From assembly GCA_050942955.1 (NCBI GenBank), contig JBMNOG010000003.1:3049-67048 (forward strand): a DNA stretch of 64,000 nt, written 5' to 3'. The notes under the pieces were generated by a model. The model searched no databases and was not told where the DNA came from. It worked only from the letters and a program-made list of their open reading frames with translations. Positions 3,641-43,665 of the stretch are shown here, in pieces. A program made the position numbers and the translations under genes. The number at the start of each line of letters is the position of its first letter. Position 1 is the first letter of the stretch. This DNA is from Patescibacteria group bacterium. Lineage in GTDB: Bacteria > Patescibacteriota > Microgenomatia > UBA1400 > UBA1449.

Positions 3641-3713
3641 TGCGCGAACTAGGACTCGAACCTAGAACCACCAAGGTATAAGCTTGGCGCTCTACCAATT
3701 GAGCTATTCGCGC
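3641..3713 (-). tRNA. tRNA with anticodon UAU (DNA TAT). This is an Ile2-type tRNA that would read AUA. It is 73 nt long with no encoded CCA.
   Basis: The reverse complement folds into a canonical cloverleaf. Acceptor stem GCGCGAA/TTCGCGC. D-stem GCTC/GAGC. Anticodon stem CCAAG/CTTGG with loop CTTATAC (U33, anticodon TAT, A37). Variable loop TGGTT. T-stem CTAGG/CCTAG with T-loop TTCGAGT. Discriminator A. Confidence 0.65.
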
Positions 3714-6167: not shown

Positions 6168-6761
6168 TTATTGTGTGTCTTTTTTATAAAACACCCGCCC
6201 TGGATACAATAAAATGTTCCTGTGACACCATTCAGCAAGCCAGCGAATAGAGTCAACGACTTTATGGTGAAAAGCTTTTTCAATTTCTTCCTCATCTATA
6301 GGAAGTACGATGTTTGGTCTGGCTATTTGCGTGGATTTGATTAAAATTTCACCATATTCATCTTTTACTGGCTTTGGTAAAGTAACTGTTTGCGGGTTAG
6401 GGATTTCTTCTACCCACTCTTTTAATTCCAATGGTGGTTCAAACTCAGCCGCTACTTCTCTTACCGGCACTCTTTCAGGAGAAGTTGTTCCGGTTGTTTG
6501 TTCCTGCCTCTCCTTGTCTCGACTACCTACTGTTTGAACTTTTGTATCTGTTTTCTTTTGTGATGCAATAAGTTCTTGCAGTTCTTTATCTAAAGTATCA
6601 ACCGGCTTTTGTTTTTTTGTTAATTTCTGAACCTCTTGGGTTTCTTCATGTTTCTTTTTTTCTTCGAGCTGCGTGATTTGAGACTGAAGTTTGGCAACTG
6701 TTTGAGATGAAACCGAATCATCCTGAGACGAAACGGGTGAGTTTGGGGCAGAGTGATCCAT
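6168..6761 (-). CDS. Hypothetical protein. It has a low-complexity, charged coiled-coil N-terminal half and a conserved C-terminal region.
   Basis: 197-aa ORF packed tightly between cobA and the T4SS ATPase on the same strand. Ser/Gln/Lys/Glu-rich. No recognised motif. Confidence 0.4.
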   Translation of the reverse strand: MDHSAPNSPVSSQDDSVSSQTVAKLQSQITQLEEKKKHEETQEVQKLTKKQKPVDTLDKELQELIASQKKTDTKVQTVGSRDKERQEQTTGTTSPERVPVREVAAEFEPPLELKEWVEEIPNPQTVTLPKPVKDEYGEILIKSTQIARPNIVLPIDEEEIEKAFHHKVVDSIRWLAEWCHRNILLYPGRVFYKKDTQ

Positions 6762-6773
6762 GAAGATATGATA

Positions 6774-7397
6774 TCAAAAATCCAAACCTTTTACTGCTTT
6801 ATTTCCCAGATCATAGGGATGTTTTACCTTTTGCATTTGGGTTACTAAATCTGCGGACTCAACTAGCTCTTGAGTTGCATTTCTGCCAGTTAAAACAAGG
6901 TGAGTTTTCCCTCTTTTTTCAATCATCTGTTTAACCTTTTTCCAATCCAGCAGCTTCTCGGAAAGTGCATTACAGATCTCATCACAAACAATAACGTTGT
7001 ACTTTTCTTGTTTAAGTAATTCTTCAGTTTTTGAAAGTGCTTTCTCAGCCTCCTTTCTATGCTCTTCTGGGGTAGCTGTGTCTAAAACCACTCCGCCTCC
7101 TTTAAGTGAAGCTGTCTTTTGTTTTTCCGAAATTTTTGAGCTTTGAGCTGCTTTCTTTGCACTTAGCACTTGGCTCTTTGCGCTTTGTATATAAAACCCT
7201 CTTCCTAACACAAAAAAGTCTATGGGCATAAACTGAGGAAGTCTAAACTCGCTTATCTTCCAGGAAGCTTCTTTGTACCAGGCTATCCAGCCGACTTTCA
7301 GTCCAGCACAAACAGCTCTTACTGCCACCCCTAAGGCCGCGGAAGTTTTTCCTTTGCCATCTCCTGTAAAAACATACACCAGACCCTTTTGTTTCAT
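6774..7397 (-). CDS. cobA: Cob(I)alamin (cob(I)yrinic acid a,c-diamide) adenosyltransferase of the CobA/BtuR/CobO family.
   Basis: P-loop VFTGDGKGKTSAALGVAVRA. C-terminal HLVLTGRNATQELVESADLVTQMQKVKHPYDLGNKAVKGLDF, which aligns with the BtuR C-terminus. The protein carries a low-complexity insert. Confidence 0.8.
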   Translation of the reverse strand: MKQKGLVYVFTGDGKGKTSAALGVAVRAVCAGLKVGWIAWYKEASWKISEFRLPQFMPIDFFVLGRGFYIQSAKSQVLSAKKAAQSSKISEKQKTASLKGGGVVLDTATPEEHRKEAEKALSKTEELLKQEKYNVIVCDEICNALSEKLLDWKKVKQMIEKRGKTHLVLTGRNATQELVESADLVTQMQKVKHPYDLGNKAVKGLDF

Positions 7398-8065
7398 AGT
7401 TCTCCCATAGATTTAGTTTCTTTTTTCACTGCTTCTTCCCAGTTTGGTTTCAACGGAACATCAAAGCTTTTTAATATTACCTCTAGCTTTGGCAAAGGCA
7501 AACCAATTATGCCTGTCATACTACCATCAGTTTTTTCTACAAATGCCTCACCCAGTTCCTGGATAGCATACCCGCCCGCTTTATCCAGAGGTTTATTGGT
7601 TTCAACATAGTTTTCAATAAGCGAATCGGAAACAGGCTTAAAGGTAACACTAGAAACCGAGAAGTCAGTCATAAAGCGGTTTATTCTAGTATTGAGAACA
7701 GATATACCAGTAAAGACTTTATGGGTTCTGCCACACAAGCTCCTAAGCATTTTCTTAGCTCCTTCAAGGTCTTCAGGCTTACCAAATACGTGCCATTTTG
7801 CATCTTTTTCTAAAACAACAATAGTGTCGGCAGAAATAATAATAGTTTCACTTTCCCCATTACCTGATGCGTCTTTTGTAGGCAATCTTCCAACAACCTC
7901 TTTAGCTTTCGCTAAAGCTAGTTTAACTACCAATTCTTCAGGGGTTCTGGCGAGTTTAACAAACGCTTCTTCATTAAGATTGCTGGGAATAATTTGAAAC
8001 GTATCAATAATAAGTGAAAGCAGGTCTTTTCTTCTCGGAGATGAAGATGCCAGAATTATGTTCAT
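7394..8065 (-). CDS. maf: Maf-like nucleoside-triphosphate pyrophosphatase (house-cleaning, septum-associated).
   Basis: N-terminal ILASSSPRRKDLL Maf signature. Its 4-nt overlap with cobA suggests translational coupling. Confidence 0.75.
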   Translation of the reverse strand: MNIILASSSPRRKDLLSLIIDTFQIIPSNLNEEAFVKLARTPEELVVKLALAKAKEVVGRLPTKDASGNGESETIIISADTIVVLEKDAKWHVFGKPEDLEGAKKMLRSLCGRTHKVFTGISVLNTRINRFMTDFSVSSVTFKPVSDSLIENYVETNKPLDKAGGYAIQELGEAFVEKTDGSMTGIIGLPLPKLEVILKSFDVPLKPNWEEAVKKETKSMGEL

Positions 8066-8079
8066 AGGGGTATTGTACC

Positions 8080-8412
8080 TTATTTGTCAGGTTCAAATTC
8101 CCCGTTTCCCAATCGCTTCTCCAACCTTTTAAGCATCGCTCTATATTCTTTTTCTAAATCAATGTCATACTTTGTTGCCATCATAAAAAGGACATCCAGT
8201 ATATCGCAAAGAGAATCAGCTAGCCCTTCTTCGCCTTGCCAAGCCCTTCTTTTTGGTTTGGCTTTTTCAGCAACGAGGATCGCATTTGCAAGTTCCCCAA
8301 CTTCTTCCACCAAATCAACAAAGGTTGTCTTCTTATCCCACTGAACCGGAAACTTTTGGTGTAAGAGCTTGGTTTTTTCCTGAAGAGCCCTGAGAGATTT
8401 TAAATTTTTCAT
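8080..8412 (-). CDS. Small MazG-family nucleotide pyrophosphohydrolase.
   Basis: 110 aa. The EEVGELA...E.LAD..DVL pattern (VDLVEEVGELANAILV ... EEGLADSLCDILDVLFMM) is typical of MazG-like NTP-PPases. Confidence 0.7.
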   Translation of the reverse strand: MKNLKSLRALQEKTKLLHQKFPVQWDKKTTFVDLVEEVGELANAILVAEKAKPKRRAWQGEEGLADSLCDILDVLFMMATKYDIDLEKEYRAMLKRLEKRLGNGEFEPDK

Positions 8413-8430
8413 TTTAGGTTTTTAATTGTC

Positions 8431-10764
8431 TTACAAGCTGCATTTACTAAAACCGCAGTTAAGGCACATCGAGCAGCCTTCACTCATTTGCAGGGGAGAG
8501 CCGCACTCAGGACAGAGAGAGGTATCAGGCACTAAGTGCTGAGTGTTGGGTTTTTTAGTTTCAATACTTTTTCTTTGATTCTTAGCACTTAGATCTTCAT
8601 TCTTGGCACCTTCTCTCATCCGTTCCTTAAGTGACTTTATTTTAATTTTGCTTTGAATAATCGGCTCAGCTTTTTTCCTGGAACTAGATTTTAATTGCTC
8701 TACTTTCTGTGTCTTTTTTAAAATTTGAATGCTCTTTGAACCATCACGGTAGATAGTAATACCCTTACACCCTAATTTCCAGGCAAGAAGATAGGCTTTC
8801 TCAATATCTTCAATGGTTGCATTATGAGGAAAATTTATTGTTTTGGAAACAGCGTTATCTGTGTACTTTTGGAAAGCAGCCTGCATCCGCACGTGATCTT
8901 CCCAGGAAATGTCATGAGCTGTCACAAAAATGTTGCGGATTTTTGCCGGAATTGCCGATATTTCTTGACAGCTACCCGTTTTAACAACTTCTTCAATAAC
9001 CTCCTGCCGTTTATCTTTATTTGGAATTACTTCTTTTAAGACTTCTTCAAAGTAGGGATTAACATAGGTTAAGCCTTCATCTTCAACCACATTTTTAACG
9101 TATGAAAGTAGAAATACAGGTTCAATTCCGGAAGAACAGTTGGCAATCATAGAGATTGTTCCGGTTGGGGCAATGGTAGTAATTGCAAGGTTGCGTTGCT
9201 TCACTCCTTTTTTCTCATAAAGACTTCCTTTCCAGTTGGCAAACACCCCCTTTTCTTTAGCTAGTACCTCCGATTCGTTATGAGACACAGAGTAAATAAA
9301 ACGCATCACTTTTTCGGCTAAGCCAAGCGCTTCAGAAGAGTTGTAGGCAATCTCAAGCTGATAGAGCATATCCGCCCAACCCATAACCCCAAGACCAATC
9401 CTTCGATTTGCTTTAGCCATTTGTTCCACTTCAGGAATGGGGTATAAAGAGATATCCACCCCATTATCTAAAAATCTAACAGCCAATCTCACTACTTCTT
9501 CAAGCCTTTTCCAGTGTACTCTTTTTCCTGGCTTTTCTTCATTTTCGATGATAAATTTTGCTAAGTTAAGTGAACCCAAGTTACAGACATCAAACGGATG
9601 CAGAGGCTGTTCACCGCAGGGATTAGTAGCCTGGAGCGGACCAAGTGTTTCTAAAACCGGATTGTTGCGGTTAATTGTATCGAGATATATAACCCCGGGG
9701 TCACCCGTTCGCCAGGCTAGAGTAACTATTTGGTCAAATAAGCTGCGCGCCGGTATAGTTTGAACAATTTCTTTTGTTCGCGGGTTAAGAAGGTCAAAAT
9801 CCTTGTCTTTTTCTACTGCCTGCATAAATAGGTCGCTAACTCCTACGGAAATGTTAAAGTTATTAACTTCCTGTTCTTCGGTTTTGCAGGTGATAAAGTC
9901 TAAAATATCTGGGTGATCAACATTAAGAATCCCCATATTAGCCCCGCGCCGAAAGCCTCCCTGCATAATCTGTCTCGTAGCTGCATCAAAGACTTTCATA
10001 AAAGAAATCGGACCGGATGAGTAACCGCCGGAAGAAACAACATAATCACCTTTAGGACGAAGGGCACTAAAGTTAAAGCCTGTGCCGCCACCTTTTTGCT
10101 GGATAAGCGCCATCCACTTTACTGCATCAAAAATTCCTTCCATTGAGTCTTTAACTGGCAAAACAAAGCAGTTAGCAAGCATGCTTTTTTCAAGCCCGGC
10201 CGTGCGCAGATACCCTCCTGCCGGAACAAACTCAAAGGTGGTCATCATTCCTAGAAATGCTTTCTCCCACTTCTTTTTATCTCTTTTTTCGTTAGCTGCT
10301 ATCGCTTTAGCCACTCTTTCAAACAGTTGCTTGGGTGTTTCGACTACCTTTCCTTCATCATTGTGCCGAAGGTAGCGGCTTTCCATTACTTTAAGCTGGT
10401 TAAAGGTAAGTCCAAGGTCATCAGTAACTCCAATACTTTGTTTTGCTTCCCGTTCTTCCGTACGTTCTGCCCGGTAAAGAATGTAGGCTTTGGCCGTTTT
10501 GTAGTAGCCGGCAGCCATCAAAACCTGCTCAACGACATCCTGCATAGTTTCAACTGCAGGCGGCTGGCCGTTAACTGTTCGGGTAAAAAGATCGATGGCA
10601 ATAGGAGTCAGGCGTTTTGCTTCTCTGATACTTTTGTCTTTATCTTTAAGTTCTTTACTTCCTAAAAAAGCTTTGTACATGGCTTGAGTCACTTTGTTAG
10701 GATCAAAGTTAACTAATCTGCCGTCGCGCTTTTGGATTTGAGTAATGGGGTTATGAGATGACAT
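8431..10764 (-). CDS. nrdJ: Class II (adenosylcobalamin-dependent) ribonucleotide reductase, paralog 1. It has an N-terminal ATP-cone.
   Basis: 777 aa. N-terminal ATP-cone-like region (KRDGRLVNFDPNKV ... AKAYILYRAERTE). CFVLP and TNPCGEQPL active-site motifs. C-terminal zinc ribbon CPECGSPLQMSEGCSMCLNCG. Confidence 0.9.
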   Translation of the reverse strand: MSSHNPITQIQKRDGRLVNFDPNKVTQAMYKAFLGSKELKDKDKSIREAKRLTPIAIDLFTRTVNGQPPAVETMQDVVEQVLMAAGYYKTAKAYILYRAERTEEREAKQSIGVTDDLGLTFNQLKVMESRYLRHNDEGKVVETPKQLFERVAKAIAANEKRDKKKWEKAFLGMMTTFEFVPAGGYLRTAGLEKSMLANCFVLPVKDSMEGIFDAVKWMALIQQKGGGTGFNFSALRPKGDYVVSSGGYSSGPISFMKVFDAATRQIMQGGFRRGANMGILNVDHPDILDFITCKTEEQEVNNFNISVGVSDLFMQAVEKDKDFDLLNPRTKEIVQTIPARSLFDQIVTLAWRTGDPGVIYLDTINRNNPVLETLGPLQATNPCGEQPLHPFDVCNLGSLNLAKFIIENEEKPGKRVHWKRLEEVVRLAVRFLDNGVDISLYPIPEVEQMAKANRRIGLGVMGWADMLYQLEIAYNSSEALGLAEKVMRFIYSVSHNESEVLAKEKGVFANWKGSLYEKKGVKQRNLAITTIAPTGTISMIANCSSGIEPVFLLSYVKNVVEDEGLTYVNPYFEEVLKEVIPNKDKRQEVIEEVVKTGSCQEISAIPAKIRNIFVTAHDISWEDHVRMQAAFQKYTDNAVSKTINFPHNATIEDIEKAYLLAWKLGCKGITIYRDGSKSIQILKKTQKVEQLKSSSRKKAEPIIQSKIKIKSLKERMREGAKNEDLSAKNQRKSIETKKPNTQHLVPDTSLCPECGSPLQMSEGCSMCLNCGFSKCSL

Positions 10765-10775
10765 AGTTTAAAAAC

Positions 10776-12737
10776 CTACAGTTTACACTGACTCCACCCG
10801 CATTCATGACAGGTAGCACAGCCTTCGGATTTAACGATACGGGCCCCGCATTCAGGACAGGAAGAGGTGCTCAGTGCTGAGTTCTGGGTACTAAGATTTT
10901 CAGTTTTACTAACCTTTTCTATAAGATCACTATTCGTGTCCAACTTCGTACTTGGTACTTCGTACTTAGTACTTTTGACATTCAATACCTGATCCTGTTT
11001 ACTGCCGTCGCGGTAGATCGTAATTCCCTTGCACCCTAACCGCCAAGCAAGCATATATGCGTTGCGCACATCTTCAGCTGTTGCGTTATGAGGAAAATTA
11101 ATCGTTTTGGAGACGGAATTGTCAAAATGTTTCTGCCAGGCAGCCTGAATTCGGACATGCCACTCAGGTTCAATCTGATGAGAAGTAACAAACAGTTTCT
11201 TTTCTTTTTTGTTCAGGTGCTCAACACTACCAAGGTTTCCTTCTGCCGCTATTGTTTCCAAAACACTCCTAACCTCTTTCTTTGTTAGACCCTTTGTTTT
11301 CAGATACTCTTCAAACTCAGGGTCAATCATCATTAACTCTTCTGTCGGCCGATTTTTTTTATCATCTTCAAAAAAGGTTTTTCGCAGGGTCACTAAAGAA
11401 AAAACAGGTTCAATTCCGGAAGAACAATTGGCCAGCATAGAGATAGTGCCGGTTGGGGCAATCATTGTGAGAGCGCAATTTCGGTACCGTTCCGCACTGC
11501 CAGCATAAATTGACCGGTCCCAGTTGGGGAATACACCCCGTTCTTTGCCAAGCTCTAAAGACATTTCTTCAGCTTTGCGTCTGATAAACTTAGCTAACCT
11601 TTCCGAAAGCCTGATAGCTTCTTCGCTGTTGTAGGGAATGCCAAGTTTAAAAAGCAAGTGAGCAAAGCCCATCACTCCAAGACCAATGCGACGGTTGCCG
11701 TTTTTTACCATTTCTTCAATTTCTTTAAGCGGATAGTTATTTACTTCGATCATATCGTCTAAAAGACGTACCGCTACTTTTATAGATTTTTCCAGATCAT
11801 CCCAGTCAATTTCATAACTACCGTTTTTATCTTTTACTATATGATTTGAAAGGATAATTGAAGTAAGGTTGCACGACTCATAGGGCAGTAGGGGTATCTC
11901 ACCGCAAGGGTTAGTACAGTTAATTACTCCCAGAGAAGGGGTGGGGTTATCTTCCTGCATTCTATCCAAAAAAGCCAGCCCTGGGTCACCTGTTGCCCAA
12001 GCGTGTTCAACGATTAAGTCAAATAGTTTTCGGGCTTTAATCTTTTTAACTACCTCCCCATTCCGGGGGTTAATAAGTTCCCAAGGTTTATCCTGCTCAA
12101 CTGCCTCCATAAACTCATTCGTTACTCCTACTGACACATTAAAGTTTTTAATCGTACCGTCTTCTTCTTTTAAAGTAATAAAGTCGATAATGTCAGGATG
12201 ATCAACATTTAAAACCCCAATGTTAGCGCCTTGTCTTTTTGAGCCTTGGAGAATTTTTGATAAAGCAGCCGAGTAGGCACTTAAGAAATCAACCGGGCCA
12301 GAAGCTGCACCAGGGACATTTTTAACTTTATCTCCACGGGGTCTGATTTTGGAAAAGTTGAAACCTGTGCCACCGTTATTTTTGTGAACAACTGCCGCAT
12401 CTCCTAAGGTTTTAAAAATTGAGTGGATATTATCTTCAACCGGTAAAACAAAGCAGGATGAAAGCTGGCCTGTACCCCCGGGATTGCCAGCTTCAAACAA
12501 GGCTTTACCGGCTACCACAAATTTCAAATTTACCATCCGCTCAAAAAACTGCTTAGCTGTTTTTTCAACAATTCCATTCATCCCCCAGTTGATCTCAGCC
12601 TTAGCAAGATGCTGGGCAACGCGCCAGAACATTTCTCCCGGAGTTTCGATTACATTCCCTTCCATATCTGTTCGCAAGTAGCGTTTTTCGGCAATCTTTT
12701 TCGCACTTTTAGTCAAGTTTGGTTCAGTAATTTTCAT
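10776..12737 (-). CDS. nrdJ: Class II ribonucleotide reductase, paralog 2. It has no ATP-cone.
   Basis: 653 aa. CFVLPVED and NPCGEIPL motifs. C-terminal CPECGARIVKSEGCATCHECG zinc ribbon. It sits 11 nt upstream of paralog 1. Confidence 0.85.
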   Translation of the reverse strand: MKITEPNLTKSAKKIAEKRYLRTDMEGNVIETPGEMFWRVAQHLAKAEINWGMNGIVEKTAKQFFERMVNLKFVVAGKALFEAGNPGGTGQLSSCFVLPVEDNIHSIFKTLGDAAVVHKNNGGTGFNFSKIRPRGDKVKNVPGAASGPVDFLSAYSAALSKILQGSKRQGANIGVLNVDHPDIIDFITLKEEDGTIKNFNVSVGVTNEFMEAVEQDKPWELINPRNGEVVKKIKARKLFDLIVEHAWATGDPGLAFLDRMQEDNPTPSLGVINCTNPCGEIPLLPYESCNLTSIILSNHIVKDKNGSYEIDWDDLEKSIKVAVRLLDDMIEVNNYPLKEIEEMVKNGNRRIGLGVMGFAHLLFKLGIPYNSEEAIRLSERLAKFIRRKAEEMSLELGKERGVFPNWDRSIYAGSAERYRNCALTMIAPTGTISMLANCSSGIEPVFSLVTLRKTFFEDDKKNRPTEELMMIDPEFEEYLKTKGLTKKEVRSVLETIAAEGNLGSVEHLNKKEKKLFVTSHQIEPEWHVRIQAAWQKHFDNSVSKTINFPHNATAEDVRNAYMLAWRLGCKGITIYRDGSKQDQVLNVKSTKYEVPSTKLDTNSDLIEKVSKTENLSTQNSALSTSSCPECGARIVKSEGCATCHECGWSQCKL

Positions 12738-12764
12738 AGTTATTTCTTATATGTTTATGCTATT

Positions 12765-12800
12765 TGACAAAGCTGATAGATTTTTTAATCAGCTTTGTCA
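12765..12800. promoter_or_regulatory. Perfect 13-bp inverted repeat with a 9-nt spacer in the RNR3-RNR2 intergenic region. It could be an operator, attenuator or terminator.
   Basis: TGACAAAGCTGAT-agatttttt-AATCAGCTTTGTCA. A second imperfect hairpin (TTCGTTTCC-tatct-GGAAAC-aga-AAACGAA) follows at about 12822-12850. Confidence 0.4.
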
Positions 12801-12850
12801 TGCTGAGTTTTTCGTTTCCTATCTGGAAACAGAAAACGAAGCGCTATTTT

Positions 12851-14950
12851 TTACACATCACACTTACTGTACCCACACTCAGGGCACGTCATACAACCCT
12901 CTCCTTTGCGCATAACCGCTCCACATTCAGGGCAGGAAGATAGGGCATCAGTTGGTTTAAAAGGACGGGGAACTTGATCAATTCTGCGTTTCACTAACGG
13001 AGTTCCCCGAAACTCAGAGGCGCCATTTGTGGTATATGCATCATTTTTCTTACTGCCGCTTTCTAAAACTACTTCTTTTCTTGAGCCAGTTACATAGACC
13101 GTTATCCCCTTACAACCAAGTTTCCAAGCAAGCATATATGCCCTTTTTACATCGTCAACTGTGGCATTTGAAGGAAAGTTAATCGTTTTGGAAATCGAGT
13201 TGTCTACAAACTGCTGGAGCGCTGCCTGCATCCGAACGTGCTGGCTTGCCGTTAAATCAGATGAAACAACAAATACTTTCCTGATTTCCTCCGGAATTTC
13301 GGCAATCCCCTGGCAACTTCCGCTTTGTCTCACTTTTTCAAAAATAAGTTCTCTTTTTTTCTTGCTAATACCACTTTTTGTAAGCGCTTTAGCAAACAAG
13401 TCGCTCTCATAGTAGAGTTGTTTAAAGTCTTCCCCGTTATCATAGTCCGCCCCCTCGTGCGTTTTCATTACATAACTTAAAGAAAAGACAGGTTCGCAGC
13501 CATACCCTTCTAAGCCAGAAACAGTTGCAATTGCGCCTGTCGGGGCAATAGTGTTCTGACAAGCATTACGGACACCATACTTTTTAATATCTTTTACTAA
13601 CGTTTTCCAATCGAGAATAGGGCGATTAAATGGTGTTTCAGACTTAACTAATGGTTTATTTATCGTAAAAACAAAACTATTCTTGTTGTAAACACTTTCA
13701 CTTATTCCGGGAAATGGCCCTCTGTCTTTAGCTAGTTCAACGCTGGCTTTAAGAGTATGAAAGCGAATAAACTCCATCACCTGACCAGCTAAGTCTTCTC
13801 CTTCTTTTGAACCATAAGGGACCCCAATTAGGTACATTAAGTCAGCCAGTCCCATAATGGAAACGCCGATTCGCCTATTTTTAAAAGCTGCTTCTTGCAG
13901 CAGAGGTACAGCTGGTACGTACTTGTTTACCTCAACCACATCGTCTAAAAAGCGGGTTATAACTTCTGTTGTTTTCTGCAACGCTTTCCAATCTATTTCA
14001 TAGTCAAACACTTTGCTGGCAAGTGATTTCCCTTTGGCTTTCTTGGGTTTTACATGTTGGCGGAGGTTAATACTGGCCATACAACAGTTTTCCCCTGGTC
14101 CCAGCCACTGCTCGCCGCAGGGATTCGTTGCTTCCAGGGTATATTGCTGCGGCACCGGGTTGTCTCGATTTGCACTGTCAAGGAAAAGGACTCCAGGTTC
14201 ACCATTATGATGGGCAAAGGTGGCAATCTTAGTAAACAAGTCTTTCGCTTTTACTTTTTTTACTACTTCTTTACTATAGGGATCGATAAGAGAAAATAGC
14301 TTATTGCCTTCCACTGCCCTCATAAACTCATCGGTGATCCCCACTGAAATATTGAAGTGCTCAACCTCTCCCTCACTTTCTTTGCAGCAGATAAAGTCTT
14401 CAATATCCGGATGGTTTATCGGCAAAACCGCCATACATGCACTTCGTCTTCCCCCACCTTGCCCAATAACCCAGAAAGCGGTGTCGTAGATTTTTAAGAA
14501 AGAAACTGCTCCGGTAGCTTTTCCTTTGCTGGTACTGATAAAAGAACCTTTATGTCTGATTCTGCCAAAAGAAAAACCAACTCCTCCACCTGATTGAAGA
14601 ATTAAGACCGCATCGCGAAGAGTTGAAAAAATACTGTGCTCCATCTTGCCTAAATCGTCTTCAATCGGCAAGACAAAGCAGTTAGCCAGTTGTCCAGAAC
14701 CTGTACCAGCATTAGCAATCGTTCTTCCATTAGGAAGAAAACGGAGTTTACATAAGTTATCAAAAAACTCTTCCCGAACATCATTGGGATCAATCCCATC
14801 CCGGTACTGATTTTCCGCTTCTGCTACCACCCGTGCCACTCGTGCAAAAATGTCTTCAACTGACTCAACAGTTTTACCATACTCATCCCGTAAACTGTAA
14901 CGTTTGATAAAGACTTCTAGAGCATTTGGGGGTAGCTTAATTTTGGGCAT
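12851..14950 (-). CDS. nrdJ: Class II ribonucleotide reductase, paralog 3. It has no ATP-cone. I trimmed the start to the internal Met MPKIK so that it abuts the nrdR stop.
   Basis: CFVLPIEDD and NPCGEQWL motifs. C-terminal [21 protein letters not shown]. The longer ORF (to 15034) overlaps nrdR by 83 nt. The ATG at 14950 leaves a 1-nt gap after the nrdR stop. Confidence 0.85.
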
Positions 14951-14951
14951 A

Positions 14952-15398
14952 TTAGTCAAGTTCCTGAATTTGTTTTTTAAATTCTCCAACACTGTTAAAT
15001 TCAAGAAAAACGCTGGCAAACCTAAGGTAAGCAACCGGATCCATGTGCTTAAGTCTTGTTAGAATCATTCGCCCAATATCAGATGAAGAAACCTCGGTTG
15101 ACTTCCGGTTCATTAGCCGTAACTCAATATCTTCAATTATTTTCTCAATATCTTCTTCCAGGATATCTCTCTTTTCACAAGCTAATTTTATGCCATACTT
15201 CATTTTTACCCGATCAAAATCCTCTTTGTTGCCATCTTTTTTTACTACTTTAAGATCAATAATCTCAACTCTTTCGTATGTAGTAAATCGCTTCTGGCAT
15301 CTATTACATTCCCGTCTACGGCGCGTAACCTGACCGTCCTCGCTATCGCGAGATTCTAGAACAGAACTTTTTGGTGAGTTACAGTAGGGACACAACAC
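14952..15398 (-). CDS. nrdR: NrdR transcriptional repressor (zinc ribbon plus ATP-cone).
   Basis: N-terminal CPYC...CNRC zinc ribbon (MLCPYCNSPKSSVLESRD...RRRRECNRCQKRFTTYE) followed by an ATP-cone. It lies immediately upstream of the RNR array. Confidence 0.9.
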   Translation of the reverse strand: MLCPYCNSPKSSVLESRDSEDGQVTRRRRECNRCQKRFTTYERVEIIDLKVVKKDGNKEDFDRVKMKYGIKLACEKRDILEEDIEKIIEDIELRLMNRKSTEVSSSDIGRMILTRLKHMDPVAYLRFASVFLEFNSVGEFKKQIQELD

Positions 15399-15448
15399 AA
15401 TGATCCTTAGAATTTCGAGATTTGCACATTACCTTTTATATTTTCATA

Positions 15449-15464
15449 ACACTATTCATAGTGT
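15449..15464. promoter_or_regulatory. Putative NrdR box 51-66 bp upstream of the nrdR start.
   Basis: ACACTATTCATAGTGT is a near-perfect palindrome with 7-bp arms ACACTAT / ATAGTGT. It matches the NrdR-box consensus acaCwAtATaTwGtgt. Confidence 0.5.
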
Positions 15465-15588
15465 GCTATAAAAATGTAGAGCACTATAAATCAGCGGTCA
15501 ATAGGTGTATTGAAACAAGAATAAGGACTAGGTTGTTTTAGGCTGTTTTATCAACAAGAATATGATTGAAGCAGTTTTTCCGCAAAGC

Positions 15589-16320
15589 CTACTGCTGAGC
15601 TGAGGAAGAAGCTTCAACACTAACTTCTACTGAAGGTTTAGGAAGATAGTCTCCTAGAGTTTCTTCAAATCTATTTTTTACAGCCAGACTTGTTTCCTCA
15701 AGTACTCTTTTTTCCCGATCAGAAACTTTTCCCTTAAGTTCAGAAATAATTTCCTGGTGTTTTTGATAGGTATTAACTAACCGTTTTTTTGAAGCTTCTT
15801 GATCAAAGTTATTTCCTTGCTTATCAATTACCTGATGTAACTGAGACTCTGCCCGAAGTAAATATTTTTCGGCTTTGGTTATTGTTGTAGTTCCCAAAGT
15901 TTGCTGGTTACCAAAAATTAACGCTTGTCCGGCCCCCAGTCTTTTATCAGCATACAGAAGCAGTAGTTCGTACTGGCGCTCCGGATCTTTGGCCAACCAA
16001 AGATTAATCTTATCCCTTAGCATCTTAATACAGTAAAGTGGATGGTCTGGTAGAATTCCGGGATACGGAAGATGATGGTCAATTAAGTTAGTTTTTTCCT
16101 TTCCTAATATGGTAGTAGTACTAGCACTGGCTTCGGAGGAAATCTCATCAGCTACAGATGCAAACACGGTTTTAGAGAAATTTTTTTGAATTAGGCCTGG
16201 ATGAGCAATACGAAAGGCTGAGATAATAACCATAAAGAAAGCTAAACAGACAAAAGTTCCGGATAGAAGTAAGCGCGAACTAATCATACAGTTACTTTTC
16301 TTTATAACCCAATTCATCAA
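15589..16320 (-). CDS. Hypothetical membrane-anchored protein. It resembles the DUF5667-type proteins common in CPR genomes.
   Basis: 243 aa. N-terminal transmembrane helix. Conserved HPLY...LRDKINLWL...RL region. No catalytic motif. Confidence 0.35.
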   Translation of the reverse strand: MMNWVIKKSNCMISSRLLLSGTFVCLAFFMVIISAFRIAHPGLIQKNFSKTVFASVADEISSEASASTTTILGKEKTNLIDHHLPYPGILPDHPLYCIKMLRDKINLWLAKDPERQYELLLLYADKRLGAGQALIFGNQQTLGTTTITKAEKYLLRAESQLHQVIDKQGNNFDQEASKKRLVNTYQKHQEIISELKGKVSDREKRVLEETSLAVKNRFEETLGDYLPKPSVEVSVEASSSAQQ

Positions 16321-16915
16321 GGGCTTTTTGTAATGTTTGTTCTTTGCTTAATGTGAAAGTATCTATAACCAAATCATATAACTCGGGATTCCAAAAATAA
16401 ATTGGCTCATTTGCTAAAGAAGGCTTAGCCTTTACCACCCAGTCCTGCCATTCTTTAGCATACATTTTCTGCCATTTTTCCAAATTTTTTTGTTCTCGTT
16501 CGAATATGTGTTTTTTAGCATCAGCAACAGATATATTATCACGGTTAACTAATCGGTCTACTCTAATAGGGTCATCACTGCATACTACTAATATTTTTAA
16601 GGTACCTGGAATTCCCTGAGCCATAAAACCAGAAAGCCAAGCATCAATGACCCGATGATCTTTTTCCTTTAAGCTCTTTCTAGTCTGATAATCTACCTTC
16701 CTATCAAAGTCATCGCTGTACACTGTTGCATCATGATGCAACTTGTTGTTGCGATCAAACAAACCTTGTTCAATCGCATATGCTCTCATAAAATCCCCAC
16801 CGCTGAAGTAATCCCATCCTAAAGTTTTAGCTAGAGTTTTAGCCAGAGTTGAGGAGCCAGCTCCAGGTAAGCCGGAAACAGTGATGTTTCTGTACCGCAA
16901 ATTTTTTCCAGTCAT
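16292..16915 (-). CDS. P-loop nucleotide kinase resembling cytidylate kinase family 2 (archaeal-type Cmk).
   Basis: Walker A ITVSGLPGAGSSTLAKTLA. Kinase-like VDRLVNRDNISVADAKKHIFEREQ region. Confidence 0.5.
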   Translation of the reverse strand: MTGKNLRYRNITVSGLPGAGSSTLAKTLAKTLGWDYFSGGDFMRAYAIEQGLFDRNNKLHHDATVYSDDFDRKVDYQTRKSLKEKDHRVIDAWLSGFMAQGIPGTLKILVVCSDDPIRVDRLVNRDNISVADAKKHIFEREQKNLEKWQKMYAKEWQDWVVKAKPSLANEPIYFWNPELYDLVIDTFTLSKEQTLQKALDELGYKEK

Positions 16916-16992: not shown

Positions 16993-17520
16993 CTATTGTA
17001 AAGACGGCTGAAAAGCTACAGCACAGATAGACTGAGCTTTCTCAATAGCTGTAAGTATCTGCTGTAATCTCTCCTTGGCTTCATGTAAAGTTATATGTTG
17101 AGTATTATCAATAAAGTAGTGAAAAATCTTGTTGCGGCACTCTTTCCAAGTTTGCCACAAAAGTTCTGGAAGTTCTTTGCTGTGGTACAAATTTTCCAGA
17201 TCGTCATACAAAGCTTCAAAACTGTTTGGATCACTTTGTGCCAGTGCTGGATTTAAAGCCTTCCCTACTCTAAATCGTTTACCAGTATATCGCTTCTCTG
17301 ATATTAACCCTAAACGGAAGAGCATATCTTTGACAAAGCCTTCGTAGGCTTTTGCTGCAGGCATAACTATAAAGGAGTAGTCATAAAACGTTTTTTTCTT
17401 ATACTCGATATCTTCGATAAGGTAAAAGCTTTGCTGTAAAAGCTCTCTTTGAGAGGCAGGAAGTTTCTTAAACCATTCTTTTGCATGAAGCGTTTCTAAG
17501 GTATACTTAGTTTCTGACAT
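16993..17520 (-). CDS. Hypothetical protein. Possible HEPN-like domain.
   Basis: 175 aa. C-terminal ECRNKIFHY contains an R-x4-H arrangement like the HEPN RNase motif. Otherwise no recognised similarity. Confidence 0.3.
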   Translation of the reverse strand: MSETKYTLETLHAKEWFKKLPASQRELLQQSFYLIEDIEYKKKTFYDYSFIVMPAAKAYEGFVKDMLFRLGLISEKRYTGKRFRVGKALNPALAQSDPNSFEALYDDLENLYHSKELPELLWQTWKECRNKIFHYFIDNTQHITLHEAKERLQQILTAIEKAQSICAVAFQPSLQ

Positions 17521-42793: not shown

Positions 42794-42891
42794 AGTGGTA
42801 AACGCTGTTAAAAGGTAAGCGAGGAGAGCAAAGATTAAGACTTTTGCCCTGCTCCCTACTCTTTATGCTGTTTTTTCTTTTTTATTAATAA

Positions 42892-43620: not shown

Positions 43621-43626
43621 ATAAAC

Positions 43627-43653
43627 AAAAACCCTGCCCAATCAAGCAGGGTT
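43627..43653 (-). terminator. Hairpin between pflB and pflA, probably a terminator or attenuator.
   Basis: AAACCCTGC-ccaatcaa-GCAGGGTTT. On the minus strand it is followed by TTTTGTTTAT. Confidence 0.5.
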
Positions 43654-43665
43654 TACCCAAGATCC

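What the first reader, a model, noticed from the sequence alone, without database searches (positions are those of the whole stretch)
6774..15464. Three tandem, divergent, full-length class II (B12-dependent) ribonucleotide reductases in one NrdR-headed array with a B12 adenosyltransferase, Maf and MazG
nrdR is followed by three NrdJ paralogs. Each has the CFVLP and NPCGE active-site motifs and its own C-terminal CxxC...CxxC zinc ribbon. Only the last, 8431-10764, carries an N-terminal ATP-cone. The paralogs are highly diverged from one another, not recent duplicates.

They are co-linear with cobA (cob(I)alamin adenosyltransferase, which makes the AdoCbl cofactor) and with two nucleotide-pool sanitising pyrophosphatases, MazG-like and Maf. 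Triplication of the essential RNR, with differing allosteric equipment, is unusual for a reduced genome.

Possible explanations are substrate-range or condition specialisation, or one or two copies that have been recruited to a non-RNR function.
Basis: partly seen in the sequence, partly recalled or inferred. Interest (0 to 1): 0.55.

Follow-up and report, generated by a model that had tools for sequence, protein, structure and literature searches.

The report
Conserved three-enzyme B12 ribonucleotide reductase operon
A tiny-genome (CPR/Microgenomates) bacterium carries three different, apparently all active, vitamin-B12-dependent ribonucleotide reductases in one operon; the trio is conserved across its relatives, and the copies differ at the sites that set substrate choice and regulation, so it is a natural test case for why some microbes keep several such enzymes.

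Summary
On the minus strand, nrdR (14952-15398) is followed by three full-length class II RNR genes: J1 12851-14950, J2 10776-12737 and J3 8431-10764. A MazG-like pyrophosphatase, Maf and a CobA-type adenosyltransferase follow.

The three copies are only about 42% identical. They share no long DNA repeats, and the same array occurs in independent assemblies, so it is not an assembly artefact.

It is also not a one-off. The nrdR plus three NrdJ array, usually with Maf, an adenosyltransferase and a DUF8128 ATPase, was present in all nine related Patescibacteria/Microgenomates loci I could read across the array. A tenth, cut locus from WWE3 also carries three class II RNRs. Each copy defines its own orthogroup (bootstrap 98-100%).

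All catalytic residues and the six-cysteine C-terminal zinc finger are about 100% conserved in more than 100 orthologs of each copy. This argues against pseudo-enzymes.

The copies differ in fixed ways at known specificity and regulation elements:
- Phosphate-specifying apical loop: PNGR, (C/V)AGK and PAG(C/G/R), against PNSP in single-copy relatives.
- Loop 2 and the specificity site.
- ATP-cone: 0/120, 48/120 and 119/120 homologs.

Best reading: three co-expressed isoenzymes that have split their functions. Published work treats multiple NrdJ per genome as a puzzle, and I found no description of this operon.

The parts
15473..15501 (-). sigma-70-like promoter candidate (TTGACC, 17 nt spacer, TACATT) upstream of nrdR
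   Evidence: Consensus scan. The number of such sites in the region is not above chance. Only its position, directly upstream of the NrdR-box-like site, makes it a candidate.
15449..15464 (.). NrdR-box-like 16-bp palindrome ACACTATGAATAGTGT (as read on the gene strand), just downstream of the -10-like hexamer
   Evidence: It is the only match in the 64-kb window to ACACWATATATWGTGT with up to 3 mismatches (2 mismatches; about 1 expected by chance). Similar palindromes lie 45-91 nt upstream of nrdR in L001, L003 and L082, with weaker ones in L087 and L088. The box consensus is quoted from memory of the NrdR literature.
14952..15398 (-). nrdR (148 aa): zinc-ribbon plus ATP-cone repressor
   Evidence: TIGR00244 176.8 bits (cutoff 124.65); Pfam Zn_ribbon_NrdR plus ATP-cone.
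12851..14950 (-). NrdJ paralog J1 (699 aa): class II RNR, no ATP-cone, C-terminal six-Cys zinc finger
   Evidence: TIGR02504 608 bits. Best PDB match is T. maritima NrdJ, E=1.7e-100. CFVLP lies at 14666-14680 and NPCGE at 14111-14125. The orthogroup has 100% bootstrap support.
14723..14734 (-). J1 apical phosphate loop P-N-G-R (T. maritima P89-N-S91-P)
   Evidence: PNGR is found in 116/116 J1 orthologs. The G-R pair is the published triphosphate determinant (PMC8365446).
14438..14464 (-). J1 loop 2, GQGGGRRSA
   Evidence: Each position is fixed at 99-100% within the J1 orthogroup.
12738..12850 (-). J1-J2 spacer (113 nt) with two strong hairpins. Possibly an intra-operon attenuator or RNA-stabilising element; its function is unknown.
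   Evidence: MFE -33.3 kcal/mol, z=-6.2. There is no T-run after the stems. It is not conserved in L003, where the spacer is 18 nt.
10776..12737 (-). NrdJ paralog J2 (653 aa): class II RNR, no ATP-cone here (48/120 homologs have one), six-Cys zinc finger
   Evidence: TIGR02504 659 bits. Best PDB match is T. maritima NrdJ, E=1.2e-114. CFVLP lies at 12441-12455 and NPCGE at 11898-11912. The orthogroup has 98% bootstrap support.
12504..12515 (-). J2 apical phosphate loop V-A-G-K
   Evidence: (C/V/P)xGK is found in 107/110 J2 orthologs. This motif is not among those described in PMC8365446.
12225..12251 (-). J2 loop 2, LQGSKRQGA
8431..10764 (-). NrdJ paralog J3 (777 aa): class II RNR with N-terminal ATP-cone and six-Cys zinc finger
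   Evidence: TIGR02504 721 bits. Best PDB match is T. maritima NrdJ, E=1.1e-125. CFVLP lies at 10156-10170 and NPCGE at 9610-9624. The orthogroup has 100% bootstrap support.
10459..10740 (-). ATP-cone of J3 (residues 9-102)
   Evidence: Pfam PF03477 64.6 bits. A cone is present in 119/120 J3 homologs, 48/120 J2 homologs and 0/120 J1 homologs.
10213..10224 (-). J3 apical phosphate loop P-A-G-G
   Evidence: Among J3 orthologs: PAGC 41, PAGG 30, PAGR 28, others 15.
9940..9966 (-). J3 loop 2, MQGGFRRGA
8080..8412 (-). small all-alpha MazG/YpjD/DCTPP1-like nucleoside-triphosphate pyrophosphatase (110 aa)
   Evidence: Pfam MazG 23.2 bits (cutoff 22). PDB hits are 5ie9, YpjD (2gta), RS21-C6 and dCTP pyrophosphatase 1. 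A MazG-like or NUDIX gene lies inside the array in L082, L084, L086, L087, L088 and L089.
7394..8065 (-). Maf nucleotide pyrophosphatase (223 aa)
   Evidence: Pfam Maf 182.9 bits; TIGR00172 151.7 bits (cutoff 117.15).
6774..7397 (-). CobA/CobO/BtuR-type ATP:corrinoid adenosyltransferase (207 aa). It overlaps the end of Maf by 4 nt.
   Evidence: Pfam PF02572 168.3 bits. It scores below the TIGR00708 cutoff (139.1 against 167.75), probably because of an insertion around residues 66-100. In L089 and L005 a PduO-type adenosyltransferase takes its place.

Best explanation
The locus is an NrdR-controlled operon encoding three separate, catalytically competent, adenosylcobalamin-dependent class II ribonucleotide reductases of the dimeric T. 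maritima type, each with the C-terminal zinc-finger reductant shuttle.

They are ancient paralogs or xenologs that a large group of Patescibacteria (Microgenomates-type CPR bacteria) keeps together. They are most likely co-expressed isoenzymes that have divided the work of one classical RNR.

The three differ in fixed, lineage-wide ways:
(i) The apical phosphate-binding loop. All three have Gly where diphosphate reducers have Ser, which predicts triphosphate-type or altered phosphate preference. The following residue is Arg in J1, Lys in J2 and variable in J3.
(ii) Loop 2 and the effector (specificity) site at the dimer interface.
(iii) dATP/ATP on-off control through an ATP-cone: never in J1, sometimes in J2, always in J3.

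The co-transcribed corrinoid adenosyltransferase turns scavenged cobalamin into the AdoCbl cofactor. The Maf and MazG/DCTPP1-like pyrophosphatases trim or convert (d)NTPs. An example would be dUTP or dCTP to the monophosphate, a step needed if NTPs are reduced directly.

Shown: the genes, their conservation, intact catalytic residues and the pattern of fixed differences.
Inferred: co-expression, triphosphate preference, and partitioning of substrates or effectors.
For: Family and active site.
- All three pass the NrdJ equivalog model and best match T. maritima NrdJ.
- NPCGE is the class II finger-loop motif (PMC9669993).
- The beta-A Cys, radical Cys, beta-F Cys, Asn, Glu, Gln203, Arg207, Asp141 and Arg171 equivalents are conserved at 95-100% in 110-116 orthologs of each copy. 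The one exception is Arg207 in J3, which is R 54% / K 39% (residue roles from PMC4728125).
- The six-Cys spacing C-x2-C-x9-C-x2-C-x2-C-x5-C is identical to the experimentally essential array of S. nassauensis NrdJd (PMC5704485).

Selection.
- dN is 0.15-0.34 with saturated dS against orthologs in L082 and L086.

Orthogroups.
- Within-group identity is 48-100%, against 36-48% between groups.
- NJ bootstrap support is 100, 98 and 100%.

Synteny.
- nrdR plus three class II RNRs occurs in all nine related loci read across the array: L003, L004 (cut before nrdR), L082, L084, L086, L087, L088, L089 and L090. A tenth, cut locus, L005, shows three class II RNRs in the part that is held.
- The order is J1-J2-J3 in seven of them.
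- All 76 non-CPR loci hold a single NrdJ.

Functional divergence.
- 18 of 34 group-specific fixed differences fall in T. maritima residues 132-212, which cover helix alpha-A, loop 1, helix alpha-B and loop 2 (odds ratio 5.4, p=7e-5).
- Apical loops are PNGR (116/116), xxGK (107/110) and PAG(C/G/R), against PNSP in almost all single-copy relatives.
- ATP-cone counts are 0/120, 48/120 and 119/120.

Independence of the enzymes.
- Slot 1 is filled by a different NrdJ type in three loci: a PNSP Dehalococcoidia-like enzyme in L090, a PAGR enzyme in L089, and a monomeric NrdJm-like enzyme in WWE3 locus L005. The count of three is kept.

Operon structure.
- Spacers between successive genes are 1, 113, 11, 18, 14 and -4 nt.
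- An NrdR-box-like palindrome sits at the promoter.
Against: - No enzymatic, expression or structural data exist for any of these proteins.
- The G-R rule for triphosphate specificity was established on a few enzymes. The reverse graft (S-P to G-R) inactivated S. nassauensis NrdJd (PMC8365446). The J2 (xAGK) and J3 (PAGG/PAGC) motifs have never been tested.
- All three retain the effector-binding Asp and Arg and the loop-2 Gln and Arg. Each could therefore still be a full four-substrate enzyme.
- Fixed differences at the dimer interface would also be expected if the paralogs formed heterodimers.
- In MAG L003 the J3 and Maf genes appear frameshifted. This is either assembly error or a sign that J3 can be lost.
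- Deep nodes of my NJ tree are unresolved.
- AdoCbl-contact residues could not be checked one by one.
Confidence: 0.6

Rival explanations
1. The three paralogs are subunits of one hetero-oligomeric RNR, as heterodimers or CRD-mediated higher oligomers. The ATP-cone of J3 (and of J2 in many lineages) would regulate the cone-less partners, and electrons would pass between subunits.
For: - The operon is tight, its gene order is conserved, and the genes always co-occur, which is typical of complex subunits.
- Fixed differences are concentrated in the helix alpha-A / alpha-B dimer-interface segment.
- The CRD drives oligomerisation and cross-subunit electron transfer in S. nassauensis NrdJd (PMC5704485).
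Against: - Slot 1 is replaced by unrelated NrdJ types, including a monomeric-type enzyme, in L005, L089 and L090. This is hard to reconcile with a co-evolved obligate interface.
- Each paralog keeps a complete active site, effector ligands and its own six-Cys shuttle.
- No heteromeric class II alpha-alpha' enzyme is known to me (own knowledge).
Confidence: 0.15
2. The copies are redundant or condition-specific isoenzymes (ecoparalogs). Each would be a complete RNR tuned to a different cobamide form, reductant, temperature or growth state. Some could be recent xenologs awaiting loss.
For: - Lundin et al. propose redundancy as the null hypothesis for same-class RNR paralogs (PMC3019208).
- CPR bacteria must scavenge corrinoids of varying structure (inference).
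- Slot 1 is exchanged between lineages.
- J3 may be decaying in L003.
Against: - All three sit in one operon behind one NrdR-type promoter, which gives little scope for condition-specific expression.
- Three orthogroups are retained across deep divergence (54-82% identity within the top 120 homologs of each) in genomes of about 1 Mb, with saturated dS and low dN. This argues for non-redundant selection.
- The differences map to substrate and effector elements. They do not map to the finger loop, and the C-terminal reductant shuttle is the same in all three.
Confidence: 0.17
3. One or two copies are pseudo-enzymes or have been recruited to a non-RNR role, for example as regulators or nucleotide sensors.
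For: - J2 has the most derived specificity site. In about 8% of J2 orthologs the third or sixth C-terminal cysteine is missing.
- J3 has lost the Arg of the phosphate loop in most members.
Against: - The radical Cys, both redox cysteines and the Asn/Glu of NPCGE are 100% conserved in all three groups.
- All three score 608-721 bits on the NrdJ equivalog model.
- dN is low in all three.
Confidence: 0.05
4. The array is an assembly artefact, such as a collapsed or chimeric repeat.
For: None was found.
Against: - The copies are about 42% identical in protein and share only short DNA stretches, at most 155 nt at about 70%.
- An identical array is found in two independently assembled runs.
- Nine other organisms, including a closed genome (CP065002.1), show the same architecture.
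Confidence: 0.01

Closest known systems
Dimeric class II RNR of Thermotoga maritima (NrdJ; PDB 1XJE, 1XJN, 3O0O)
   Same: - It is the best solved relative of all three copies (E from 1e-100 to 1e-125).
- The fold domains are the same.
- Cys134, Asn320, Cys322, Glu324, Cys333, Gln203, Arg207, Asp141 and Arg171 equivalents are present.
   Different: - T. maritima has one enzyme, with a PNSP (diphosphate) apical loop and a K-Q-G-S-R-R-R-G-A loop 2.
- This locus has three enzymes, with PNGR, VAGK and PAGG apical loops, and G, L or M at the Lys202 position.
- J3 adds an ATP-cone, and all three carry the zinc-finger tail.
NrdJd of Stackebrandtia nassauensis and the cysteine-rich C-terminal domain (Loderer et al. 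2017, PMC5704485)
   Same: The spacing of the six C-terminal cysteines is identical in J1, J2 and J3. The inferred role is the same: a Zn-structured Cys pair that re-reduces the active site.
   Different: The tails here are short, about 60-110 residues after the barrel, against 150-220 in that enzyme. This is the short C-terminus with zinc finger category of PMC9669993. The physiological reductant is unknown in both.
Genomes with more than one NrdJ and differing phosphate specificity (Schell et al. 2021, PMC8365446)
   Same: Several NrdJ genes co-occur in one genome, and they differ in the apical phosphate loop that the paper identified as the NDP/NTP determinant. The paper calls such co-occurrence a puzzle.
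   Different: - The published pattern is one PNSP enzyme plus one PAGR enzyme (69% of cases).
- This genome has three enzymes, none with PNSP.
- Their motifs are not among those described: the PNGR hybrid, (C/V)AGK and PAG(C/G).
- They sit in one conserved operon of a CPR clade that the paper does not mention.
Split class II RNR NrdJa+NrdJb of Pseudomonas aeruginosa
   Same: More than one adjacent nrdJ gene.
   Different: NrdJa and NrdJb are two halves of one enzyme, the barrel and the CRD (PMC5704485, PMC9669993). Here each gene encodes a complete barrel plus its own zinc finger.
Multi-class RNR repertoires (for example class Ia + Ib, or I + II + III in P. aeruginosa)
   Same: Several RNRs are kept in one genome, and NrdR is the common repressor.
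   Different: Those enzymes differ in oxygen and metal requirements and sit in separate, differently regulated operons (PMC3019208, PMC4009431). Here all three use the same cofactor chemistry and lie in one operon.

Membership tests
Class II (AdoCbl-dependent) ribonucleotide reductase, NrdJ | RNR all-alpha N-domain plus ten-stranded barrel domain; score above the NrdJ equivalog model cutoff | tested here: met
   Pfam PF00317 plus PF02867 in all three. TIGR02504 scores are 608, 659 and 721 bits against a cutoff of 400, and each is higher than the class I model TIGR02506 (328, 344, 381).
Class II (AdoCbl-dependent) ribonucleotide reductase, NrdJ | Finger-loop thiyl-radical cysteine in the class II motif N-P-C-x-E | tested here: met
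   NPCGE is present in J1, J2 and J3. N, C and E are 100% conserved in each orthogroup. NPCxE occurs in 3175/3347 class II sequences, whereas class I has NLCxE (PMC9669993).
Class II (AdoCbl-dependent) ribonucleotide reductase, NrdJ | [quoted passage not shown] | tested here: met
   The Cys of CFVLP is conserved at 99-100%. The beta-F Cys is 100% conserved in all three groups.
Class II (AdoCbl-dependent) ribonucleotide reductase, NrdJ | Residues that bind adenosylcobalamin | not testable with these tools
   The paper describing AdoCbl contacts in T. maritima NrdJ is not held, and no coordinates can be read. The support is indirect only: the equivalog score, the class II finger loop, and an adenosyltransferase gene in the operon.
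Class II (AdoCbl-dependent) ribonucleotide reductase, NrdJ | No separate radical-generating subunit (NrdB/NrdF) or activase (NrdG) partner | tested here: inconclusive
   None is present in the operon or among the 39 window ORFs scanned with Pfam. The radical-SAM gene at 42892-43641 lies next to a pyruvate formate-lyase, not next to an RNR. The rest of the genome was not available.
Class II (AdoCbl-dependent) ribonucleotide reductase, NrdJ | AdoCbl-dependent reduction of ribonucleotides in vitro | not testable with these tools
   This needs purified protein.
NrdJ cysteine-rich C-terminal zinc finger (CRD) | Six fully conserved cysteines at the extreme C-terminus with spacing C-x2-C-x9-C-x2-C-x2-C-x5-C | tested here: met
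   J1 is [25 protein letters not shown], and J2 and J3 have the same spacing. It equals Cys920, 923, 933, 936, 939 and 945 of S. nassauensis NrdJd (PMC5704485). Conservation is 100% in J1 and J3. In J2 the 3rd and 6th cysteines are at 92%.
Ribonucleoside-triphosphate-reducing NrdJ (apical loop P-[A/S/G]-G-R) | Gly-Arg pair in the apical phosphate loop, in place of the Ser-Pro of diphosphate reducers | tested here: inconclusive
   J1 is P-N-G-R: the G-R pair is met, but position 2 is the Asn of the diphosphate motif. J2 is V-A-G-K (Lys, not Arg; no Pro). J3 is P-A-G-G (no basic residue). None has the PNSP diphosphate motif. The specificity of these variants has not been measured.
Ribonucleoside-diphosphate-reducing NrdJ (apical loop P-N-S-P) | Ser (T. 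maritima Ser91) contacting the beta-phosphate, followed by Pro | tested here: not met
   None of the 340 aligned J1, J2 and J3 sequences (window copies plus 337 homologs) has PNSP, whereas nearly all single-copy relatives do.
ATP-cone-regulated RNR (overall activity site) | N-terminal ATP-cone domain (PF03477) | tested here: met
   Met for J3 only (64.6 bits, residues 9-102). Not met for J1 and J2 in this window. Across homologs the counts are J1 0/120, J2 48/120 and J3 119/120.
NrdR regulon | NrdR repressor gene | tested here: met
   TIGR00244 176.8 bits against a cutoff of 124.65.
NrdR regulon | Tandem pair of 16-bp NrdR boxes in the promoter (consensus quoted from memory) | tested here: inconclusive
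   One box-like palindrome is found at 15449-15464 (2 mismatches), and it is conserved in close relatives. No convincing second box was found. About one such match per window is expected by chance.
CobA/BtuR ATP:cob(I)alamin adenosyltransferase | Family HMM above the curated cutoff | tested here: inconclusive
   Pfam PF02572 scores 168.3 bits against a cutoff of 25.7, so it is met. The NCBIfam equivalog TIGR00708 scores 139.1 bits, below its cutoff of 167.75, and the match is split in two by an insertion.
Maf nucleotide pyrophosphatase | Family HMM above the curated cutoff | tested here: met
   PF02545 182.9 bits; TIGR00172 151.7 bits against 117.15.
MazG / all-alpha NTP pyrophosphatase | Family HMM above the curated cutoff | tested here: met
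   It is only marginally met: PF03819 scores 23.2 bits against a cutoff of 22. Weak PDB matches to YpjD, 5ie9 and DCTPP1 give E values from 6e-5 to 9e-3. There is no NCBIfam hit.

The most novel reading that the evidence does not exclude
The Microgenomates trio is a disassembled RNR. The four-substrate allosteric cycle that one enzyme normally runs through three loop-2 conformations (pyrimidines, A, G) would be parcelled out to three dedicated enzymes. These would probably reduce triphosphates, and only some would be under dATP shut-off. J1, with its PNGR hybrid motif nested among PNSP enzymes, would then represent a second, independent switch of phosphate specificity. That would contradict the published view that this trait changed only once in NrdJ evolution.
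Probability: 0.2. Interest if true: 0.85.

Novelty: new variant of a known kind. Interest (0 to 1): 0.6.

Why it matters
RNR is the only route to DNA building blocks, and its single-enzyme, four-substrate allostery is a textbook paradigm. The RNR field states openly that it does not know why some organisms keep several oxygen-independent NrdJ enzymes (PMC8365446).

This locus offers a clean natural experiment:
- Three complete NrdJ enzymes sit in one operon.
- They are retained by selection across a whole clade of roughly 1-Mb-genome, nucleotide-scavenging bacteria.
- The lineage-fixed differences between them are enriched at the elements known to set phosphate level, base specificity and on/off control.

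Expressing the three proteins would test directly whether specificity regulation can be partitioned among paralogs. It would also test what the untested apical-loop motifs (PNGR, CAGK, PAGG/PAGC) do, and whether phosphate specificity switched more than once.

The locus also bears on how CPR bacteria balance dNTP pools from scavenged nucleotides and scavenged B12.

Tried and rejected
- Rfam scan of the whole window at gathering thresholds. It found only a tRNA at 3641-3713, with no cobalamin riboswitch or other RNA element in or near the operon.
- Promoter and terminator consensus scans. Counts were not above shuffled expectation, so I used them only for position.
- Search for a second NrdR box. 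None was convincing.
- Search for other copies of the spacer hairpin. None was found, so it is not a repeated element in this window.
- Pseudo-enzyme idea. Rejected on residue conservation.
- Assembly artefact. Rejected.
- Lys202 idea. I first thought all three copies had lost a universal loop-2 Lys (T. maritima K202). Wider sampling showed two canonical types, K-Q-G-G and A-Q-G-G, so only the J2 loop is strongly atypical.
- dN/dS. dS is saturated, so only dN is informative.
- Literature searches combining NrdJ or ribonucleotide reductase with Patescibacteria, CPR, Microgenomates and candidate-phylum names. They returned nothing describing this operon.
- The paper on AdoCbl contacts in T. maritima NrdJ is not held, so B12-contact residues were not checked.
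- Structure prediction was not run. The tool returns no coordinates and cannot model pairs of chains, so it could not discriminate between the explanations.

Full report
**What is there.**
The region lies on the minus strand of a 40% G+C window in which nearly all genes point the same way. Reading 5' to 3' along the genes, it contains the following.

| Feature | Coordinates | Notes |
|---|---|---|
| Promoter-like site | 15501-15473 | consensus match only |
| NrdR-box-like palindrome | 15449-15464 | 16 bp |
| nrdR | 14952-15398 | |
| NrdJ 'J1' | 12851-14950 | 699 aa |
| Hairpin-rich spacer | 12738-12850 | 113 nt |
| NrdJ 'J2' | 10776-12737 | 653 aa |
| NrdJ 'J3' | 8431-10764 | 777 aa, N-terminal ATP-cone |
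| MazG/YpjD/DCTPP1-like pyrophosphatase | 8080-8412 | 110 aa |
| Maf | 7394-8065 | |
| CobA/BtuR-type corrinoid adenosyltransferase | 6774-7397 | |

The spacers between successive genes are 1, 113, 11, 18, 14 and -4 nt. J1 begins at the ATG at 14950, one base after the nrdR stop. The TTG start of the mechanical ORF list is not the real start.

**Checking the observation.**
- All three RNR genes carry the all-alpha and barrel domains. All exceed the curated cutoff of the NrdJ equivalog model: 608, 659 and 721 bits against 400.
- Each finds T. maritima NrdJ as its best solved relative.
- They are about 41-42% identical to each other.
- At the DNA level only short conserved-motif stretches are alike.
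- The same array is present on contigs assembled from two unrelated sequencing runs.

**It is a clade-wide feature, not a curiosity of one genome.**
- A scan of GTDB species representatives with J2 returned three CPR loci that hold the tandem genes. All 76 loci from other phyla hold a single NrdJ.
- Database searches with J1, J2 and J3 each returned 120 listed relatives at 54-82% identity (apart from the window's own or near-identical sequence). The names given by the sources include Beckwithbacteria, Woesebacteria, Pacebacteria, Collierbacteria, Chisholmbacteria, Microgenomates and Patescibacteria.
- At least 13 contig lengths recur in all three hit lists. This is a proxy for the three genes lying on the same contig.
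- I looked up seven long contigs, including contigs of 404, 777, 810 and 897 kb and the closed 1.27-Mb genome CP065002.1. Every one shows nrdR followed by three class II RNR genes. A MazG-like or NUDIX gene usually lies inside the array. Maf, an adenosyltransferase, a small conserved protein and a DUF8128/TrwB-like ATPase usually follow.
- With L003 and L004 this makes nine related loci that carry all three genes. L004 is cut just upstream of J1, so its nrdR cannot be seen. The gene order is J1-J2-J3 in seven of them.

**Three orthogroups.**
- The 360 homologs sort cleanly. Identity to the own-group window protein is 48-100%, against 36-48% to the other two.
- I built a neighbour-joining tree of 106 sequences on 595 well-occupied columns. 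J1, J2 and J3 are each monophyletic, with 100%, 98% and 100% bootstrap support.
- J2 and J3 fall in a 63-taxon clade (71% support) that excludes J1. Deeper nodes are unresolved.
I cannot say whether J2 and J3 arose by duplication inside the lineage.

**Are all three real enzymes?**
Residue roles below come from PMC4728125 and PMC9669993. In alignments of 109-115 orthologs per group:
- The beta-A cysteine (CFVLP), the Asn, radical Cys and Glu of NPCGE, and the beta-F cysteine are conserved at 99-100% in every group.
- So are the effector ligands equivalent to T. maritima Asp141 and Arg171, and the loop-2 Gln203.
- Arg207 is 100% conserved in J1 and J2, and is Arg or Lys in J3.
- The C-termini carry six cysteines with exactly the spacing of the S. 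nassauensis NrdJd array, in which each cysteine was shown to be needed for turnover (PMC5704485).
- Against orthologs in L082 and L086, dN is 0.15-0.34 while synonymous sites are saturated.

Nothing points to a pseudo-enzyme.

**Where they differ.**
Each group has residues that are fixed within the group but differ between groups.
- *Concentration.* Of 34 such columns, 18 lie in the roughly 80-residue stretch equivalent to T. maritima residues 132-212. This stretch covers helix alpha-A, loop 1, helix alpha-B and loop 2, which together form the specificity site at the dimer interface (odds ratio 5.4, p=7e-5).
- *Loop 2.* It reads [10 protein letters not shown] in J1, I-L-Q-G-(A/S)-K-R-Q-G-A in J2, and V-M-Q-G-G-(Y/F/K)-(R/K)-(R/M)-G-A in J3. 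Single-copy relatives have (I/V)-K-Q-G-G-x-R-R-G-A or I-A-Q-G-G-S-R-R-G-A.
- *Effector-phosphate ligand Lys158.* It is kept only in J2, and is Gln in J1 and J3.
- *ATP-cone.* It is absent from all 120 J1 homologs, present in 48 of 120 J2 homologs, and present in 119 of 120 J3 homologs.

**The phosphate loop.**
Schell et al. [quoted passage not shown]
- P-N-S-P marks NDP reducers such as T. maritima, where the Ser is Ser91.
- P-(A/S/G)-G-R marks NTP reducers.

At that position:
- J1 is P-N-G-R in 116/116 sequences.
- J2 is (C/V/P)-x-G-K in 107/110.
- J3 is P-A-G-C (41), P-A-G-G (30), P-A-G-R (28) or similar.
- Nearly every single-copy relative in my sample is P-N-S-P.

All three paralogs therefore have the pocket-opening Gly in place of the beta-phosphate-binding Ser. 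They differ in the next residue: Arg, Lys, or variable.

By the published rule J1 is predicted to reduce triphosphates. The J2 and J3 motifs are not among those described.

J1 is 48-53% identical to P-N-S-P enzymes but about 42% identical to J2 and J3. It groups with P-N-S-P representatives at 79% bootstrap, and it keeps the Asn of the diphosphate motif. This suggests a separate Ser-Pro to Gly-Arg change. It would be a second switch of a trait that the paper inferred to have changed only once. This rests on an NJ tree and needs a proper analysis.

**Slot replacement.**
In three loci the first position is occupied by a different class II enzyme, while the total stays at three.
- L090: a P-N-S-P enzyme about 50% identical to the Dehalococcoidia enzymes.
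- L089: a P-A-G-R enzyme with a long TSCPD-type tail. Its third slot holds only a distant relative of J3 (about 43% identical).
- WWE3 locus L005: a monomeric NrdJm-like enzyme (RNR_Alpha plus RNR-II insertion domain, P-S-M-R, with an ATP-cone). This locus is cut, so nrdR and the downstream genes cannot be seen.

J2 is retained in all of them. This argues that the enzymes act as separate units and that the number or functional spread is what is selected. It argues against a co-evolved obligate heteromer, at least for slot 1.

**How it most likely works.**
The steps below are inferred; the anatomy above is what is shown.
- NrdR binds the operator at the promoter and sets transcription of the whole operon according to the ATP/dATP state.
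- The three reductases are made together.
- CobA adenosylates scavenged corrinoid to give each of them its radical cofactor. These organisms lack cobalamin synthesis as far as the literature on CPR genomes goes (for example PMC7143001 for general biosynthetic poverty).
- Each reductase re-reduces its active site through its own zinc-finger Cys pair.
- The reductases differ in phosphate-level preference, in effector and base coupling, and in whether dATP can shut them off. J1 would be a cone-less, always-on enzyme. J3 would be dATP-controlled.
- If NTPs are reduced directly, dUTP and dCTP are produced. The MazG/DCTPP1-like and Maf pyrophosphatases in the operon could convert or remove them.

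I put 0.6 on this explanation of three active, non-redundant, co-expressed isoenzymes. The strong version, in which each enzyme is dedicated to one of the three loop-2 states, is much less certain (0.2).

**Rivals.**
- A hetero-oligomeric enzyme (0.15) is compatible with the tight operon and the interface-centred differences, but it fits poorly with slot replacement.
- Redundant or condition-tuned isoenzymes (0.17) are the published null hypothesis (PMC3019208). That reading fits poorly with single-operon expression and deep retention in roughly 1-Mb genomes.
- Pseudo-enzymes (0.05) and an artefact (0.01) are contradicted by the data.

**Comparison with what is known.**
- The proteins are ordinary members of the dimeric NrdJ family with the short-tail zinc finger.
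- NCBI already labels the window's own proteins adenosylcobalamin-dependent ribonucleoside-diphosphate reductase.
- The existence of genomes with two or more NrdJ is published: 1108 of 24,059 GTDB genomes, of which 69% combine predicted NDP and NTP types (PMC8365446).
- Three things appear not to be described in the library I could search. These are the conserved nrdR-headed three-enzyme operon of Microgenomates-type CPR bacteria, its paralog-specific signatures, and its apical-loop variants.
- I therefore rate it a new variant of a known kind and moderately-to-highly interesting. It is not categorically new.

**Limits.**
- There is no biochemistry and no expression data.
- AdoCbl-contact residues were not checked.
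- The phylogeny is neighbour-joining with weak deep nodes.
- Taxon names are those given by depositors.
- The count of related loci with the array is a convenience sample, not a census.

Noticed in passing
window 12738-12850: The 113-nt J1-J2 spacer folds into two strong hairpins (-33.3 kcal/mol, z=-6.2) without a following T-run. It is unique in the window and absent from the closest relative, L003, where the spacer is 18 nt. It could be an intra-operon attenuator or processing site, or a remnant of a lost J2 ATP-cone.
   Followed up: partly
window 15589-16320 and 16292-16915; L089 15699-17353; L090 1887-3150: A DUF5667 membrane protein and a cytidylate-kinase-like P-loop protein sit just upstream of nrdR in most related loci. 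In L090 DUF5667 is fused to DUF4430 and followed by DUF6580. In L089 DUF4430 and DUF6580 lie next to a PduO-type adenosyltransferase. These may be corrinoid capture or uptake genes.
   Followed up: partly
window 3776-6106 and 6168-6761: A DUF8128/TrwB-TraG-like ATPase (776 aa, 66-82% identical across relatives) and a small protein with a low-complexity N-terminus follow the adenosyltransferase in nearly every related locus. Their link to the RNR operon, if any, is unknown.
   Followed up: partly
L003 9844-12776: In MAG UBA1449 the J3 ortholog is split over three frames, Maf is in three pieces and the MazG-like gene is missing. J1, J2 and CobA are intact. This is either local assembly error or real decay of that segment.
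   Followed up: partly
L005 2518-5528: [quoted passage not shown] A PduO-type adenosyltransferase and FtsZ precede it.
   Followed up: partly
L004 (CAZQBH010000031.1): The record is titled 'uncultured Pseudomonadales bacterium', but its gene content and identities (J1 60%, J2 65%, J3 57%, DUF8128 ATPase 71%) are those of this CPR lineage. It is probably a mis-binned or mislabelled contig.
   Followed up: no
homologs P0013, P0066, P0135, P0152, P0252, P0310 and others; L090 7080-10004: Inteins (Intein_splicing and LAGLIDADG domains) interrupt members of all three orthogroups. Proteins longer than 900 aa number 5/120 in J1, 10/120 in J2 and 7/120 in J3.
   Followed up: no
P0361 (1351 aa), P0362 (1600 aa): Two library representatives match J1 in five separate stretches at about 41% identity. 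In one of them J1 residues 4-422 align to positions 799-1220. They may be fused tandem NrdJ genes or multi-intein proteins.
   Followed up: no
window 1-64000: GC skew is negative across almost the whole window and nearly all genes are on the minus strand. A published Microgenomates genome reports an unusual strand composition disparity (PMC7143001).
   Followed up: no
window 27657-29435; 40694-45897; 60220-61947: The window also encodes an ATP-dependent (archaeal/eukaryotic-type) DNA ligase, an ADP-forming acetyl-CoA synthetase, pyruvate formate-lyase with its radical-SAM activase, and a pyruvate:ferredoxin oxidoreductase subunit. This is a fermentative anaerobe that has a glycyl-radical enzyme, but no class III RNR was seen in the window.
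   Followed up: no
window 16993-17520: A 175-aa protein between the RNR neighbourhood and the PBP genes gives only weak sub-threshold hits to RNase LS/RnlA-type HEPN toxin domains (22.4 bits against a cutoff of 29).
   Followed up: no
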